A stretch of 36,246 nucleotides of DNA from a virus (taxonomy: Duplodnaviria > Heunggongvirae > Uroviricota > Caudoviricetes): the IMG/VR virus record IMGVR_UViG_2703718820_000015, positions 1 to 36,246 of that record, one strand, 5' to 3'. The notes under the pieces were generated by a model. That model did no database searches. It had not been told where the DNA came from and saw only the letters and a program-made list of their open reading frames with translations. Below, in pieces: positions 1,657 to 34,966 of this stretch (positions are counted from its first letter, which is position 1; every line of letters begins with the position of its first letter). The translations under genes and the position numbers were made by a program.

Positions 1657-3582
1657 TTAGGCAGAAATATTCACAATCCCCCATGTACTTCCATTCCACA
1701 CCCATTGGACAGTAGGGTCGGAAGGATATGTTGCTGGAGATGTTCTGTAGGACACCAAGCCGATTGGGAAAGAACCTGTGTTCTCTGTCACAGTAGGCTT
1801 TGCGCTAGATCTCATTTTTACTTTCTCCCATCCGCAGAATACTGGAAGAAAGGTTCCGTTATACGGGCTAAAATACGCTCCTCCAACATAAGCGCTCATT
1901 CCGGATTCAACTGTAATCCTTAATCTGTATGCTTTACTTTTGTCGTTGGTTGGCGCTGAAACTTTGTATAACTTCCACCCTCCAACACCCATATCGTAGA
2001 ACTTATTAACTGACATATAGATGGAATTAGTACCATCTTGGGCTTCTATAGCTATCTCAAGTGGTGTGTCGCCTTTAAAGTAAAAAGCTCCACGAATGAA
2101 ACCTGTCTGTGTTTTAGTTAAATTTAGGGTTATTCTGCAACGTTGAGATGCGTTAGTGACTCCAAACCATCTACCGCAGCCAGATGGTTCATTAGGGTCA
2201 GAACCAACCTTTCGTTCGTTCGGTATAATTAAAAGGGAATAGTCAATAGGTGCTCCGTAGACTCCATCAATAACCGACCAATCTCCAGAAGGGCAAAGAT
2301 TAGAACCGGAGACACTGAACGTATCTCCTCCCTGTGCGCCTGCTGTAGGGTCTGTCCCTAATATGGTATTCATGGGGCTCATGGTTGAGGCCCAGTTACC
2401 ATATTGCACACGCGCGCCAAGTATGGTCCACGGCCCACGTATTTTCCCATTGCCCGTAACCTCGCCATACAAACCTATCACAACATTATGCTGATTTGGG
2501 GTGCTATTGTTATAGAGCAAATAATCGCCGCTTCCCGATGTGTCAAGACCTATAAATGTGTTTGCGTTCCCCTCATACGGAGCACCGGTCTGGCGACTAA
2601 AACCCGATCCAGTTATGATCAGACCACCACCGCAAAGCTGCTCAAATGTATTTTGATTTATAGATCCATCAGAGATGTCAATTATGAATCTGCCACCACC
2701 TGACGTAGTACCTGTTTTGATGCGTACAAATTGATTCCAAAAACTCCCGCCACCCCATTCAACCAACCCAGGCAGAGTGTATGCGTCTGATGATAAAAAT
2801 CTTATATCGCCGGTCGTATCAATGTTCGAGATAATAGAAAACTGTAGCCCTCTAATGTATAACGATTTACATGAAAGGCCAGTTACATTTATAGATTTAC
2901 TATGAAGGATTAGGAAATCCCCGTTAGGGATTCGGCCAACACAATCAACGTTACAGCGGATCACAAAGCGACCAGCAGAAGCATGAATGCCAGTCAGCTT
3001 GGTCATATCAACGACATAATCGCCTGGAGGGATATGCAATGATTTTCTGTTTTTCCCATACTCAACTAATTGTGAATAATCACCGTTAGCATAATCCAAT
3101 GCCTCACACAGTTTAGCAGTAACATCTGTACCATCCGGGAATACTCCCCATCCACGCACGTCTAAATCATCACGCCAGCGAGAAATCTGCAATGCGGGAT
3201 ATTTGGTTGCCCCATCAGGGTCTTCAATCTGCTGCCTTAACTGATCTGGGTCGTACTTCAGCACATTAGGAAAATAGAACTGCTGCGCACCATATGCATC
3301 ATAAACAGCCATAGAGTGGCCTTGCACAGTTACGAACTTGGCAATCTGTCCGTTATATACCGGATATCCAGCAGCATTAATGATGATTGGTTGCGAAACA
3401 GGAACGTGAGAGCCGTCTTCGTTCTCTATATAAACCTGAATCTGGTTTTCAGGATTTACCGGGTCAGTGTCAATTTTACCGATATAAATTTTGCCATTGG
3501 CTACGGCTTTAAAAGAACGAGCCATAGTGAAGAGTTGCGAAGGCATACTCACTACAACATTGGCATTTATTGAATCTGTCAT
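1657..3582 (-). CDS. Tailspike protein (P22 gp9-type head-binding domain plus receptor-binding domain)
   Basis: N-terminus [47 protein letters not shown] matches the conserved P22-family tailspike head-binding domain. Start moved to the internal ATG at 3580-3582, which has a GGAG SD; ORF-track start at 3618 is rejected. Confidence 0.9.
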
Positions 3583-33266: not shown

Positions 33267-33974
33267 ATGGATTTGAATAAATTCGATGAGCCATTCAGCC
33301 CCGAAGATATCGAATGGCGAATACAGCAAAGCGGTAAAACACGCGATGGCAAGGTGTGGGCTATGGTGCTGGCTTATGTCACGAACCGGGCAATCATGAA
33401 ACGCCTGGACGATGTTTGCGGCAAAGCAGGATGGCGCAATGAATACCGCGATATTCCCAACAACGGCGGAGTTGAATGCGGCATATCAATCAAGATTGAT
33501 TCCGAATGGGTAACCAAATGGGATGCTGCTGAAAACACGCAGGTAGAAGCCGTCAAAGGTGGTCGTTCCGGTGCAATGAAGCGTGCTGCCGTTCAGTGGG
33601 GAATCGGTCGGTATCTGTATAACCTTGAGGAAGGTTTCGCACAAACATCTCTCGACAAAAAGCAGGGATGGCACAGGGCAAAACTCAAGGATGGAACAGG
33701 ATTTTACTGGCTCCCTCCATCGCTGCCGGGCTGGGCAATCCCAGCATCAGATAACAAACCATCACCAGAAAATACCAACCAGAAATCTCCATCGGTTGAC
33801 TGCGAACAAATCCTGAAAGACTTCAGCGATTATGCAGCGACAGAAACTGACAAGAAAAAACTCATCGAGCGTTATCAGCATGACTGGCAATTAATGGCTG
33901 GAAACGAGGAGGCGCAGGCTAAATGCGTTCAGGTAATGAACATCAGAGTTAACGAGCTAAAACAGGCGGCATAA
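33267..33974 (+). CDS. Single-strand annealing protein, probably Rad52/Erf superfamily
   Basis: 235 aa, GAGGTGA SD; motif KRAAVQWGIGRYLY resembles the conserved signature of phage Rad52-type annealing proteins (from memory); sits directly upstream of ssb. Confidence 0.6.
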   Translation: MDLNKFDEPFSPEDIEWRIQQSGKTRDGKVWAMVLAYVTNRAIMKRLDDVCGKAGWRNEYRDIPNNGGVECGISIKIDSEWVTKWDAAENTQVEAVKGGRSGAMKRAAVQWGIGRYLYNLEEGFAQTSLDKKQGWHRAKLKDGTGFYWLPPSLPGWAIPASDNKPSPENTNQKSPSVDCEQILKDFSDYAATETDKKKLIERYQHDWQLMAGNEEAQAKCVQVMNIRVNELKQAA

Positions 33975-34481
33975 ATGGCAAGCAGAGGCGTAAATAAGGT
34001 GATTATCCTTGGTCGGGTAGGACAAGACCCGGAAGTTCGATACTCACCATCAGGAACAGCGTTCGCTAACCTGACAATAGCCACGTCAGAACAATGGCGA
34101 GATAAAAATACTGGCGAGCAAAAGGAATTGACTGAATGGCATCGTGTTGCTGTATCCGGGAAACTGGCTGAGGTCGTGGGGCAGTATGTGAAAAAAGGTG
34201 ATCAGATTTATTTCGAGGGAATGCTGAGAACCAGAAAGTGGAAAGACCAGTCAGGGCAAGACCGTTACACAACCGAGGTTCATGTCGGAATTAATGGTGT
34301 GATGCAAATGCTTGGCGGCATTGGCGACAGCAAACAACAAGCATCCAGCAGGCAATCACAGAAGCCACAGCAGCAATCATCACCAGCACAACACAACGAA
34401 CCTCCGATGGATTTTGACGACGATATACCCTTTGCACCAGTAACTCTCCCCTTCCCTCGTCACGCTATTCACGCAATTTAA
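33975..34481 (+). CDS. ssb: Single-stranded DNA-binding protein with atypical C-terminal extension
   Basis: 168 aa; OB-fold N-terminus, Gln/Ser-rich linker, acidic tip MDFDDDIPF followed by 15 more residues ([15 protein letters not shown]) before the stop. Confidence 0.85.
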
Positions 34482-34494
34482 TCAGGAGAAAATC

Positions 34495-34788
34495 ATGCCA
34501 GCGCCTCTGTATGGTGCGGATGACCCGCGCCGCTGTTCCGGCAATTCCGTATCGGAGGTGCTGGATAAATTCAGAAAAAACTACGATCGAATAATGTCTC
34601 TACCGCAGGAAACGAAAGAGGAAAAGGAATTTCGCCACTGTATATGGCTTGCAGAGAAAGAAGAACGAGAGCGAATTTACCAGACATCAATCCGACCATT
34701 CCGCAAAGCCACATATACCCACTTCCCTGAAATTGACCCGCGCCTGCGTAATTACCGCTCACGCTATGGCGCTATCAGTAATGACTGA
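34495..34788 (+). CDS. Hypothetical protein (97 aa)
   Basis: ORF with GGAG SD 3 nt after ssb; no family recognised. Confidence 0.5.
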
Positions 34789-34798
34789 GGAATTTACC

Positions 34799-34966
34799 AT
34801 GAGAGGACTTGCATACAATCCCGGCATTCTTCCGGCAGAAATGATTATTCGCCAACGCGTAAAGCCAATGCCATCGAGAGAGGAATTGCTTAAAAGAAAG
34901 AGTTTCGGTTCTGTTAATGACAACAAATATCTGAATGCGATGTGGCGCAAAGGAGGCAAACAGTGA
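34799..34966 (+). CDS. Hypothetical small protein (55 aa)
   Basis: ATG at 34799 with GAGG SD; ORF-track upstream extension overlaps the previous gene and is rejected. Confidence 0.4.

What the first reader, a model, noticed from the sequence alone, without database searches (positions are those of the whole stretch)
33975..34481. SSB whose conserved acidic tip (DDDIPF) is followed by 15 extra residues
Bacterial and phage SSBs normally end exactly at ...DDDIPF, and the free C-terminal Phe carboxylate is required for binding partner proteins. Here the ORF continues as [21 protein letters not shown]. If real, this SSB would bind ssDNA but could not recruit host SSB-interacting proteins in the normal way, possibly a way to sequester ssDNA for the adjacent annealing protein. 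It could also be a recent loss of the stop codon.
Basis: seen in the sequence. Interest (0 to 1): 0.55.

Follow-up and report, generated by a model that had tools for sequence, protein, structure and literature searches.

The report
Phage SSB with a capped tip
This prophage's single-stranded-DNA-binding protein carries a conserved, selected 15-residue "cap" after the normally terminal partner-docking motif, a feature widespread in phage SSBs that should change which proteins they can recruit, and a mobile endonuclease gene often inserts exactly between motif and cap.

Summary
Window 33975..34481 (+) encodes a 168-aa SSB ending [24 protein letters not shown]. It is not a sequencing error or a recent stop-codon loss. 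The same extended gene occurs in viable phages (HK75, mEp235, mEpX2, epsilon34, g341c, ECP1), in about 300 complete E. coli genomes, and in about 110 of the 120 closest protein clusters across Enterobacteriaceae. The 15 codons are under purifying selection in the SSB frame (dN/dS 0.08-0.16, against 1.7-2.1 in the other frames). Post-tip caps of other sequence classes occur in Vibrio, probably Pseudomonas, and alphaproteobacterial phage SSBs, and on non-OB scaffolds. New finding: an HNH endonuclease gene (Sf6 gene 26 type) is present or absent exactly between the Phe153 and Ala154 codons. When present it gives the SSB a canonical DIPF-stop end and itself reads through the cap. It shows homing hallmarks and occupies about a quarter of E. 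coli loci. The cap's function is inferred, not shown. It removes the free Phe carboxylate that host partner pockets use, so it probably insulates or redirects the SSB interactome. No description was found in the searchable literature. Verdict: a real, new variant of a known protein kind, moderately to highly interesting.

The parts
33267..33974 (+). Rad52/Rad22-type single-strand annealing protein gene. Its stop codon abuts the ssb start codon (0-nt gap).
   Evidence: Pfam PF04098, E = 5e-26. The same 235-aa protein lies directly upstream of nearly all APV[TG]LPFPRH-capped ssb genes.
33975..34481 (+). Complete capped ssb gene (168 codons plus stop).
   Evidence: It is at least 99% identical to the annotated ssb of phages HK75, mEp235 and mEpX2 and occurs in 163 E. 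coli genome records at 99% identity or more.
33975..34310 (+). OB-fold ssDNA-binding and tetramerisation domain (residues 1-112).
   Evidence: Pfam SSB residues 6-104. The AF2 model has pLDDT of about 85-91 for residues 6-112. About 70% identical to E. coli SSB. dN/dS 0.116.
34311..34406 (+). Intrinsically disordered Q/S/P-rich linker (residues 113-144).
   Evidence: pLDDT below 50. This is the most variable part of the gene, dN/dS 0.358.
34407..34433 (+). Canonical SSB-Ct tip MDFDDDIPF (residues 145-153), here internal. It is probably part of the endonuclease target.
   Evidence: Identical to the E. coli SSB tip. dN/dS 0.009. Alleles that carry the endonuclease have a clustered variant here, M-N-F-D-D-[E/SD]-I-P-F.
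34433..34434 (.). Empty insertion site of the HNH endonuclease cassette, between the Phe153 and Ala154 codons. The window holds the endonuclease-free allele.
   Evidence: Huey, Sf6, L007 and L136-138 carry a 441-447-nt cassette here. The P0122 and L136 endonucleases end [18 protein letters not shown] and so keep the whole cap including Ala.
34434..34478 (+). 15-codon cap [15 protein letters not shown] (residues 154-168).
   Evidence: Conserved motif A-P-[VI]-[TG]-L-[PQM]-[FY]-P-R-H-x-I-[HYN]-[AV]-[ILV]. dN/dS is 0.079 (18 genes) and 0.157 (22 distinct tails), against 1.7 and 2.1 in the other frames. Predicted disordered. No RNA structure, z = +0.92.
34495..34788 (+). abc2 anti-RecBCD gene, 13 nt downstream of the ssb stop.
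   Evidence: Pfam PF11043, E = 6e-64. No promoter or terminator consensus between 33200 and 34900.

Best explanation
The ORF is a genuine member of a large family of phage and prophage SSBs (the 'SSB-1' type of lambdoid recombination modules). In this family the canonical partner-docking tip (MDFDDDIPF) is followed by a conserved, translated 15-residue cap. Shown: the cap is a family trait under purifying selection at the peptide level. It sits on an otherwise standard OB-fold SSB inside a tightly packed Rad52-type annealase / ssb / anti-RecBCD unit of a P22-like prophage. The tip/cap junction is the insertion point of a mobile HNH endonuclease gene that is absent from this window. Inferred mechanism: the protein binds ssDNA like a normal SSB. 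Because Phe153 is followed by a peptide bond instead of a free alpha-carboxylate, the tip cannot seat properly in the basic-lipped hydrophobic pockets of host SSB-interacting proteins (ExoI, RecO, chi, PriA, RecQ and others). Because the cap sequence is itself conserved rather than arbitrary, and its class follows the host clade, tip plus cap probably forms a composite short linear motif for a different, still unknown partner, or folds back on the acidic tip. The net effect would be to insulate phage recombination and replication intermediates from the host SSB interactome. It might also poison that interactome through mixed tetramers, given the roughly 70%-identical OB domain. Where the endonuclease gene has inserted, the SSB is uncapped to a canonical ...IPF end and the endonuclease ORF inherits the cap.
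For: Real and widespread: phages HK75, mEp235, mEpX2, epsilon34, g341c, ECP1, CP-1639; about 300 E. coli genomes; about 110 of the 120 closest clusters, several genera; 76 of 80 near-identical viral loci are capped. Selection on the peptide. Not native to the endonuclease: related endonucleases end ...KPIYPE plus unrelated residues, the PHROG 2340 profile ends before the cap, and the full cap including Ala is retained downstream of the cassette. Generality: more than 120 viral contigs carry DD[DE]IPF-AP..., as do named phages Valp1 (Vibrio) and Pkon1 (Paracoccus). Non-OB scaffolds carry the same tip plus cap. Basis for blocked docking: Arg132 of RecO anchors the SSB-Ct carboxyl end (PMC3152348), and SSB-C-term-GFP loses ExoI binding and chi-dependent synthesis while keeping ssDNA binding (PMC7293020). 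Operon context.
Against: No experiment or complex model here addresses what the cap binds or whether it blocks host partners. The GFP fusion is much bulkier than a 15-residue peptide. The tip remains as strongly conserved (dN/dS 0.009) as in cellular SSBs, which suggests it is still used, possibly by host proteins. Phages with the endonuclease insertion (Sf6, Huey, IME10, N7) have an uncapped SSB and were isolated as phages, so the cap is presumably not essential. The neighbour survey found no single co-varying partner gene. The AF2 monomer model shows the cap as disordered with no docking. Within the E. coli/Salmonella subgroup the cap DNA also has unusually low dS (0.18 against about 0.9), so part of its uniformity reflects recombination or gene conversion rather than selection on the peptide.
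Confidence: 0.55

Rival explanations
1. Artefact or strain-specific accident: a sequencing error or a recent mutation destroyed the stop codon after DIPF.
For: Cellular SSBs and some close relatives end at DIPF-stop. An extra 15 open codons is about 50% likely by chance.
Against: An identical or near-identical extension occurs in independent phage isolates and hundreds of genomes. About 110 of 120 related clusters carry it. Synonymous variation preserves the peptide and dN/dS is 0.08-0.16. Relatives that end at DIPF-stop have an endonuclease cassette supplying the stop.
Confidence: 0.01
2. Deletion scar: the 14-15 residues are the C-terminus of the HNH endonuclease, fused to ssb when the endonuclease gene was deleted, with no function of their own.
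For: The same 14 residues end the Sf6, Huey and L007 endonuclease ORFs. Decaying endonuclease remnants and in-frame SSB::endonuclease deletion hybrids exist.
Against: Other members of the endonuclease family, including ones sitting after cap-less ssb genes, lack the tail and end about 3-6 residues after KPIYPE. The PHROG profile stops before it. Some endonuclease ORFs retain the entire 15-residue cap including Ala154. Diverged caps occur in Vibrio phage SSBs and on other SSB scaffolds, with no endonuclease gene evident at the junction. The peptide is under purifying selection in SSBs.
Confidence: 0.04
3. The constraint is on DNA, not on the peptide. The 45 nt are kept because they serve as a homology arm or recognition sequence for endonuclease homing, as a module-boundary recombination sequence, or as a translational-coupling element for the downstream gene.
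For: The cap DNA is nearly identical across ssb genes that are only 73-89% identical, across two endonuclease alleles and across two different downstream genes. dS in the cap is 0.18 against about 0.9 in the rest of the gene for the E. coli/Salmonella subgroup.
Against: Across 22 distinct tails dS reaches 1.7 while dN stays at 0.27, and only the SSB frame shows constraint. No RNA structure is predicted (z = +0.92). The downstream gene varies, so coupling to one gene is unlikely. Homogenisation by homing or recombination can coexist with peptide selection.
Confidence: 0.07
4. Pro-protein or degron: the cap is removed by a protease to unmask DIPF-COOH at the right time, or it targets the SSB for degradation, giving temporal control.
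For: The residues after Phe are strongly biased to Ala-Pro in many cap classes. Caps end in hydrophobic residues and contain basic residues. In my own recollection, not tested here, the RHAIHAI end loosely resembles the ClpX C-motif-2 of MuA. The tip itself stays perfectly conserved, as expected if it is eventually used.
Against: Different cap classes share no common C-terminal degron. The Ala-Pro bias was partly imposed by the search pattern, and Pkon1 has Met-Val. No protease or cleavage evidence exists. A mere removable plug would not need 15 conserved positions.
Confidence: 0.13
5. The cap does not block host partners. It adds affinity or specificity for one particular host SSB-interacting protein or another hub such as the beta clamp, so that the phage SSB out-competes host SSB for it.
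For: The tip is identical to the host's. Cap class follows the host clade: Enterobacteriaceae, Vibrio, probably Pseudomonas, Alphaproteobacteria. The cap has a second [IL]-P/Q-[FY] element (DIPF...LPF) and, by my own comparison, a loose x-[VI]-x-L-x-[FY] resemblance to hexapeptide clamp-binding motifs.
Against: Nothing here tests binding. The motif resemblances are weak and recalled from memory. The known SSB-Ct pockets use the terminal carboxylate.
Confidence: 0.2

Closest known systems
E. coli SSB and its C-terminal SSB-Ct motif ([13 protein letters not shown])
   Same: OB domain about 70% identical, a disordered linker, and nine identical tip residues.
   Different: Here the tip is internal and followed by 15 conserved residues, so the terminal Phe carboxylate that partner pockets anchor does not exist. 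The linker is also much shorter, about 32 residues.
Lambdoid Rec-module 'SSB-1' proteins (Sf6 gp27, ES18 gp48) as classified in Genome Res 2025 (PMC12315714)
   Same: Same family, same position between the annealase gene and abc2 in the early-left operon.
   Different: Sf6 and ES18 SSBs end at ...IPF-stop because an endonuclease gene follows directly. The paper calls these proteins experimentally unstudied, and my term searches of it found no mention of the cap. It treats the HNH gene as a probable Rec nuclease, while warning that some HNH genes are mobile.
Engineered SSB with GFP fused directly to the C-terminus (Dubiel et al. 2020, PMC7293020)
   Same: The C-terminus of the tip is blocked. 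That construct keeps ssDNA binding but loses ExoI binding and chi-dependent synthesis and is dominant negative. It is the best available experimental proxy.
   Different: It is artificial and carries a bulky folded domain. The natural cap is a short, conserved, disordered peptide that has been selected.
HK620 SSB / Sak4 pair (Hutinet et al. 2018, PMC5928155)
   Same: A phage Rec-module SSB whose C-terminal residues mediate functional coupling to the phage's own annealase.
   Different: HK620 SSB is a different protein type, and its motif NDYPPF is at the extreme C-terminus. No cap is present.
Free-standing phage homing endonuclease genes (for example the T4 seg/mob genes and T7 gp7.7-like HNH genes; named from my own knowledge)
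   Same: The Sf6-gp26 / Huey-type HNH ORF is sporadically present in near-identical flanks, is inserted at one precise site in a highly conserved coding motif, has flanking clustered substitutions, and shows decay remnants.
   Different: It inserts inside the 3' end of a coding sequence. It supplies a new stop codon that restores a canonical SSB end, and it borrows the displaced 14-15 codons as its own C-terminus. Cleavage activity and homing have not been demonstrated.

Membership tests
Bacterial-type homotetrameric SSB (Pfam PF00436) | N-terminal OB-fold ssDNA-binding domain | tested here: met
   PF00436 E = 1.5e-36, residues 6-104. PDB SSB hits down to E = 1e-59. AF2 gives a confident beta-barrel for residues 8-112.
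Bacterial-type homotetrameric SSB (Pfam PF00436) | Intrinsically disordered linker followed by an acidic/hydrophobic SSB-Ct motif (D-F-D-D-D-I-P-F) | tested here: met
   Residues 113-144 have low complexity and pLDDT below 50. MDFDDDIPF is identical to E. coli.
Bacterial-type homotetrameric SSB (Pfam PF00436) | The SSB-Ct lies at the extreme C-terminus, with a free alpha-carboxylate on the last Phe | tested here: not met
   15 further codons precede the stop. This is conserved across the family.
Bacterial-type homotetrameric SSB (Pfam PF00436) | ssDNA binding, tetramer formation, and recruitment of SSB-interacting proteins | not testable with these tools
   These need biochemistry. Only sequence similarity of the OB/tetramer domain (about 70%) is available.
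Lambdoid recombination-module SSB-1 | Homology to Sf6 and ES18 SSBs, and a position between the annealase gene and the anti-RecBCD gene in the early-left operon | tested here: met
   Gene order Rad52-type SAP, ssb, abc2. The same order is annotated in HK75, epsilon34, Sf6, ECP1 and ES18.
Free-standing HNH homing endonuclease (the element that uses the tip/cap junction; absent from this window) | HNH / beta-beta-alpha-Me nuclease motif | tested here: inconclusive
   No Pfam hit. PHROG 2340 'endonuclease', E = 4e-39 and 3e-47. Invariant CxxC...CxxC...HH.D...C...H...H columns. Weak PacI (HNH) hit, E = 0.012.
Free-standing HNH homing endonuclease (the element that uses the tip/cap junction; absent from this window) | Sporadic presence or absence at one precise site in otherwise near-identical genomes | tested here: met
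   Window against Huey: 2 differences in about 430 nt of ssb body, with a 441-nt cassette after the Phe codon. 99 plus 10 E. coli genomes carry it, against about 300 empty sites. The same site is used in cap-less ssb.
Free-standing HNH homing endonuclease (the element that uses the tip/cap junction; absent from this window) | Target-site differences or a co-conversion tract next to the insertion | tested here: met
   8 of 28 upstream differences fall in the last 28 nt. All 7 endonuclease-carrying alleles share the AAC TTC GAC GAT... tip variant.
Free-standing HNH homing endonuclease (the element that uses the tip/cap junction; absent from this window) | Site-specific cleavage of the empty allele and copying into it | not testable with these tools
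   Requires enzyme assays or mixed infections.
ClpX C-terminal degron or beta-clamp-binding motif (considered for the cap) | Match to a defined recognition consensus and demonstrated binding | not tested
   Only loose resemblances recalled from memory. No tool here scores these motifs or complexes. Cap classes share no common C-terminal end.

The most novel reading that the evidence does not exclude
Capping of the SSB-Ct is a general, previously unrecognised phage strategy. At least four sequence classes of post-tip caps exist, they follow the host clade (Enterobacteriaceae, Vibrio, probably Pseudomonas, Alphaproteobacteria), and they occur on at least two unrelated ssDNA-binding scaffolds. 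They would convert the universal bacterial hub motif into a phage-specific one. This would block carboxylate-dependent host partners, possibly in a dominant-negative way through mixed tetramers, while recruiting a dedicated partner. Homing endonucleases that target the tip-coding sequence would then toggle phage SSBs between capped and uncapped states in nature.
Probability: 0.35. Interest if true: 0.8.

Novelty: new variant of a known kind. Interest (0 to 1): 0.66.

Why it matters
The SSB C-terminal tip is the central recruitment hub of bacterial genome maintenance, and the field treats its position at the extreme C-terminus, with a free carboxylate, as essential. A large, naturally selected set of phage SSBs that keep a perfect tip but bury it under a conserved cap would mean one of two things. 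Either phages deliberately disconnect their SSB-coated DNA from host nucleases, helicases and restart proteins, or an unrecognised, carboxylate-independent way of reading the tip exists. Both are directly testable with peptides and with existing phages. Nature has supplied near-isogenic capped and uncapped pairs (HK75 or mEp235 against Huey, ECP1 against Sf6). The work also reinterprets the 'HNH nuclease' of some lambdoid Rec modules as a mobile endonuclease that exploits the tip-coding sequence. It flags a gene that RefSeq annotation leaves uncalled in the listed Sf6-type E. coli loci. Finally, it is relevant to recombineering toolkits that pair phage annealases with SSBs.

Tried and rejected
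1. RNA-structure explanation for the conserved cap DNA: folding 34405-34520 gave z = +0.92, so it was rejected.

2. AF2 monomer model built with a 36-sequence alignment, to see whether the cap docks on the OB fold: residues 115-168 have pLDDT below 50, so this was uninformative. The tools do not offer complex prediction.

3. Neighbour co-occurrence, to find a partner gene for the cap. The closest caps follow a Rad52-type annealase, but diverged class-1 caps and the other classes sit with Sak4/AAA_24, ERF, YqaJ or unknown genes, and the downstream genes vary. No single partner emerged.

4. Searching for the cap on other protein types. In about 220 fetched loci it occurs only on SSB tips, on the endonuclease ORF and at one deletion junction.

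5. Literature. Searches for the exact cap string, 'DIPFAP', 'DDDIPF + prophage', 'acidic tip + C-terminal extension' and 'Sf6 gene 26 SSB' found nothing relevant. Only the Sf6 GenBank note mentions the 14 shared residues.

6. A solved structure with a post-tip extension: none found.

7. Pfam and PDB assignment of the endonuclease: no Pfam hit and only a weak PacI match.

8. Promoter and terminator scan between rad52 and abc2: nothing found.

9. The Pseudomonas phage Medea1, taken as a possible class-2 example, turned out to end canonically at DIPF-stop.
Full report
**1. The observation**

Window 33975..34481 (+) is an ATG-initiated ORF of 168 codons that ends ...[28 protein letters not shown].
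- Residues 6-104 match Pfam SSB (E = 1.5e-36).
- The best solved-structure matches are enterobacterial SSBs.
- The OB domain is about 70% identical to E. coli SSB, and the nine tip residues MDFDDDIPF are identical.
- The tip occupies 34407..34433, the 15 extra codons 34434..34478, and the stop 34479..34481.

The gene lies in a tightly packed unit. A Rad52/Rad22-type annealase gene (33267..33974, PF04098) ends where ssb starts. The P22-type anti-RecBCD gene abc2 (34495..34788, PF11043) starts 13 nt after the ssb stop. No promoter or terminator consensus lies between them. The window as a whole is a P22-like phage or prophage. Fifteen additional open codons are unremarkable by chance (about 0.49), so the case rests on comparative data.

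**2. It is not an error or a private mutation**

- The extended gene is at least 99% identical in phages HK75, mEp235 and mEpX2. It is 89% identical in Salmonella phages epsilon34 and g341c.
- In ECP1 and CP-1639 the ssb body is only 72-75% identical, yet the extension is the same.
- In 5,426 complete E. coli genomes, 412 have a match and about 300 carry the uninterrupted extended gene.
- Of the 120 closest protein clusters (E. coli, Salmonella, Klebsiella, Citrobacter, Enterobacter, Kluyvera, Pluralibacter, Phytobacter), about 110 are extended and about 8 end at the tip.
- Of 80 viral-contig loci whose SSB body is at least 98% identical to the window's, 76 are capped, 2 carry an inserted gene (see section 4) and 2 could not be parsed.

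**3. The extension is a translated peptide under selection**

- The peptide [15 protein letters not shown] is encoded by at least eight different nucleotide sequences. One (L107) has eight synonymous and no nonsynonymous differences from the window.
- In 18 distinct genes, dN/dS is 0.116 for the OB domain, 0.358 for the linker, 0.009 for the tip and 0.079 for the extension.
- Across 22 distinct 15-codon extensions, dN/dS is 0.157 in the SSB frame but 1.7 and 2.1 in the other two frames.
- The consensus is A-P-[VI]-[TG]-L-[PQM]-[FY]-P-R-H-x-I-[HYN]-[AV]-[ILV], with P2 and L5 invariant.

I call this the cap. An RNA-structure explanation is not supported (z = +0.92). Within the E. coli/Salmonella subgroup the cap DNA also shows unusually low synonymous divergence (dS 0.18 against about 0.9). 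It is virtually identical across ssb genes that differ by 11-27%. So recombination or gene conversion homogenises this segment on top of the peptide selection.

**4. A mobile endonuclease gene uses the tip/cap junction**

In Sf6, Huey, IME10, N7, CurroJimenez and many prophages the match to the window is split in two. Translation shows an SSB ending ...NFDDSDIPF* or ...NFDDEIPF*. Next comes a 155-159-aa ORF with invariant CxxC/CxxC/HH.D/C...H...H columns (PHROG 2340 'endonuclease'; weak similarity to the HNH enzyme PacI). That ORF ends ...[22 protein letters not shown], the same residues as the window's extension. The Sf6 GenBank record already notes '14 contiguous amino acids identical to E. 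coli SSB'.

Two readings were possible: the cap is a scar of the endonuclease's C-terminus, or the endonuclease cassette inserted into a capped ssb. The evidence favours insertion.
- Other members of the endonuclease family end 3-6 residues after KPIYPE with unrelated sequences (EEIIQL, EDLKAA, ENTNA). This includes copies sitting directly after cap-less ssb genes.
- The PHROG profile ends before the cap.
- Some copies (P0122, P0138, L136-138) read [18 protein letters not shown] and so retain all 15 cap residues including Ala154.
- Diverged caps exist in SSBs of other genera and on other scaffolds, with no endonuclease gene evident at the junction.

The cassette (441 nt in Huey, 447 nt in Sf6) therefore sits exactly between the Phe153 and Ala154 codons. 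It brings its own stop codon for ssb and reads through the displaced cap.

The cassette has the hallmarks of a homing endonuclease gene.
- It is present or absent in near-identical backgrounds. Window against Huey shows 2 differences in about 430 nt of ssb body, then 8 differences in the last 28 nt before the insertion, then identity for 84 nt after it. ECP1 against Sf6 shows the same pattern.
- All seven endonuclease-carrying alleles examined share the tip variant ATG AAC TTC GAC GAT..., encoding M-N-F-D-D-[E/SD]-I-P-F. Empty sites mostly read ATG GA. TT. GAC GAC GAT ATA....
- An internally deleted remnant (phiKp_30) and in-frame SSB::endonuclease deletion hybrids exist.
- The same family inserts directly after the Phe codon of a cap-less ssb (L011 against L139).
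- An unrelated HNH_3 (T7 gp7.7-like) gene occupies the same position in ES18.

About 109 complete E. coli genomes carry the cassette, 99 of the Sf6 type and 10 of the Huey type. For the Sf6 type, RefSeq lists no feature under the match in the listed records. The window holds the empty, capped allele with the presumably sensitive tip sequence. Cleavage and homing have not been demonstrated.

**5. Caps are more general than this family**

A scan of viral contigs for DD[DE]IPF followed by [ASPT]-P hit the 120-locus limit. Almost every hit is a real SSB-type tip followed by Ala-Pro and 3-13 more residues.

| Class | Example caps | Hosts indicated |
|---|---|---|
| 1a | APV[TG][10 protein letters not shown][IV] | Enterobacteriaceae |
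| 1b | APIGLQ[FY]P.L....; cultured Vibrio phage Valp1 has [22 protein letters not shown] | Vibrio phages |
| 2 | APLHHLAGA, APMHYLAGS | Closest annotated relatives are Pseudomonas phages. The one checked, Medea1, ends canonically. |
| 3 | APEWR(G), APEVR; cultured Paracoccus phage Pkon1 has [14 protein letters not shown] | Alphaproteobacterial phages |

Among 150 diverse 50%-identity representatives, 64 end at a canonical tip and 16 have residues after it. Proteins with unrelated, Pfam-negative N-terminal bodies (216-244 aa) also end in tip plus cap, so the module is portable. Cap class follows the host clade rather than the annealase family. The closest caps follow a Rad52-type annealase, but diverged class-1 caps and the other classes accompany Sak4/AAA_24, ERF, YqaJ or unknown genes.

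**6. How it probably works (inference)**

Established knowledge gives two reference points.
- In SSB-Ct complexes, Pro176 and Phe177 sit in a hydrophobic pocket, and an arginine (RecO Arg132) anchors the SSB-Ct carboxyl end (PMC3152348).
- An E. coli SSB with GFP fused directly to the C-terminus keeps nanomolar ssDNA binding. It shows no detectable ExoI binding, does not support chi-dependent strand-displacement synthesis, and is dominant negative when plasmid-borne (PMC7293020).

A capped phage SSB should therefore coat ssDNA but fail to dock in the normal way with host SSB-interacting proteins. A mere plug would not need 15 conserved positions, and cap classes track the host clade. I therefore think that tip plus cap forms a composite linear motif for a distinct partner, or possibly an intramolecular mask of the acidic tip. 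The cap is predicted to be disordered, which is consistent with a linear motif.

The biological rationale would be to keep phage recombination intermediates, made together with the Rad52-type annealase and Abc2-modified RecBCD, away from host nucleases, helicases and mediators. With a roughly 70%-identical tetramerisation domain, it could perhaps also interfere with host SSB.

Points against a strong version of this model:
- The tip is as conserved as in cellular SSBs.
- Uncapped phages that carry the endonuclease were isolated as phages.
- No partner gene co-varies with the cap.

Confidence that the cap is a real, selected feature is above 0.95. Confidence in the blocking or redirecting mechanism is about 0.55.

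**7. Rivals**

- Stop-codon loss or sequencing error is refuted.
- The endonuclease-scar model is very unlikely, for the reasons in section 4.
- A purely DNA-level constraint is contradicted by the frame-specific dN/dS, although DNA homogenisation is real.
- A pro-protein or degron role, and an affinity-enhancing role for a specific host protein, remain open. They are distinguished from the main model by intact-mass analysis and by peptide binding or pull-down experiments.

**8. Comparison with what is known, and novelty**

The protein meets the definition of a bacterial-type SSB in its OB domain, linker and tip sequence. It fails the feature that the tip is C-terminal. It belongs to the 'SSB-1' type of lambdoid Rec modules, which a 2025 survey calls experimentally unstudied. 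My term searches of that paper found no mention of the extension, and it tentatively counts the HNH gene as a Rec-module nuclease while warning of mobility (PMC12315714). Searches of the available literature for the cap sequence or concept found nothing. That library lacks many subscription papers, including the original Sf6 genome paper, so some prior remark cannot be excluded.

I classify the finding as a new variant of a known kind. It is a naturally capped SSB-Ct, coupled to a homing-endonuclease hotspot that toggles capping.

**9. Verdict**

Interest is 0.66. SSB specialists would be surprised by a widespread, selected internalisation of the hub motif, and near-isogenic capped and uncapped phages make the question directly testable.

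Noticed in passing
L003:2484-2963 (Sf6 gene 26); L005:1978-2445 (Huey); L007:2067-2546; L136:~2970-3455: An HNH-type endonuclease ORF (PHROG 2340) is inserted directly after the ssb Phe codon. In RefSeq E. coli genomes the Sf6-type copy (99 genomes) has no annotated feature in the listed records, and in L136-138 no gene is called there.
   Followed up: yes
L009:2510-3031 (ES18 gp47); L012:2077-2544; L086 and L132 (155-aa ORF between rad52 and ssb): Unrelated HNH_3 / T7 gp7.7-like endonuclease genes also flank ssb: directly after it in ES18, and between the Rad52-type gene and ssb in L012 (Pfam HNH_3). L086 and L132 have a 155-aa ORF at that position that was not annotated. Both ends of ssb therefore look like endonuclease hotspots.
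   Followed up: partly
L008:2351-2554 (Klebsiella phage phiKp_30): An internally deleted remnant of the endonuclease cassette. The first ~30 nt and the last ~60 nt, including a mutated cap (…RHAAYAI), are kept, and the SSB stays uncapped.
   Followed up: partly
P0136 (178 aa) and P0137 (139 aa), both annotated as SSB in E. coli: These are in-frame deletion hybrids that join the SSB OB domain to the C-terminal half of the endonuclease (junction at a shared IVG). They are decayed loci that databases name as SSB.
   Followed up: partly
L006:2501-2559 (E. coli EC931 chromosome): A rearranged defective prophage in which a truncated lambda-family holin pseudogene abuts the last 59 nt of the capped ssb plus abc2. 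An IS5 element lies nearby.
   Followed up: no
L070, L083, L099, L124 (243-244 aa); L095, L071, L120, L081 (213-216 aa); L020 (226 aa): Proteins with no Pfam match and no detectable similarity to the OB-fold SSB query still end in a Q/G-rich linker, DD[DE]IPF and a cap. They sit next to AAA_24/Sak4-like genes and may be alternative ssDNA-binding scaffolds that carry the same tip-plus-cap module.
   Followed up: partly
L010:1461-1973 (CP-1639); also P0003, P0005, L037, L080: Capped, endonuclease-free ssb alleles that carry the tip variant N-F-D-D-[DE]-I-P-F. The Asn, with Glu or Ser-Asp at the following acidic position, otherwise marks endonuclease-bearing alleles. These are possibly resistant sites or products of endonuclease loss.
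   Followed up: partly
L151, L182, L208: Three viral contigs encode the tip variant MDFYDDIPF (Asp to Tyr within the acidic run) in an otherwise identical capped SSB.
   Followed up: no
window 34649..34966 (+) and other short ORFs overlapping ssb and abc2: Overlapping alternative-frame ORFs recur in related loci (clusters 6, 19 and 20) simply because the underlying DNA is conserved. I treated them as spurious.
   Followed up: partly
L002:2516-3064 (epsilon34 gp34); L007:2555-3103: In some relatives a DnaQ-like 3'-5' exonuclease gene (Pfam Rv2179c-like) lies between the capped ssb and abc2. The window lacks it.
   Followed up: no
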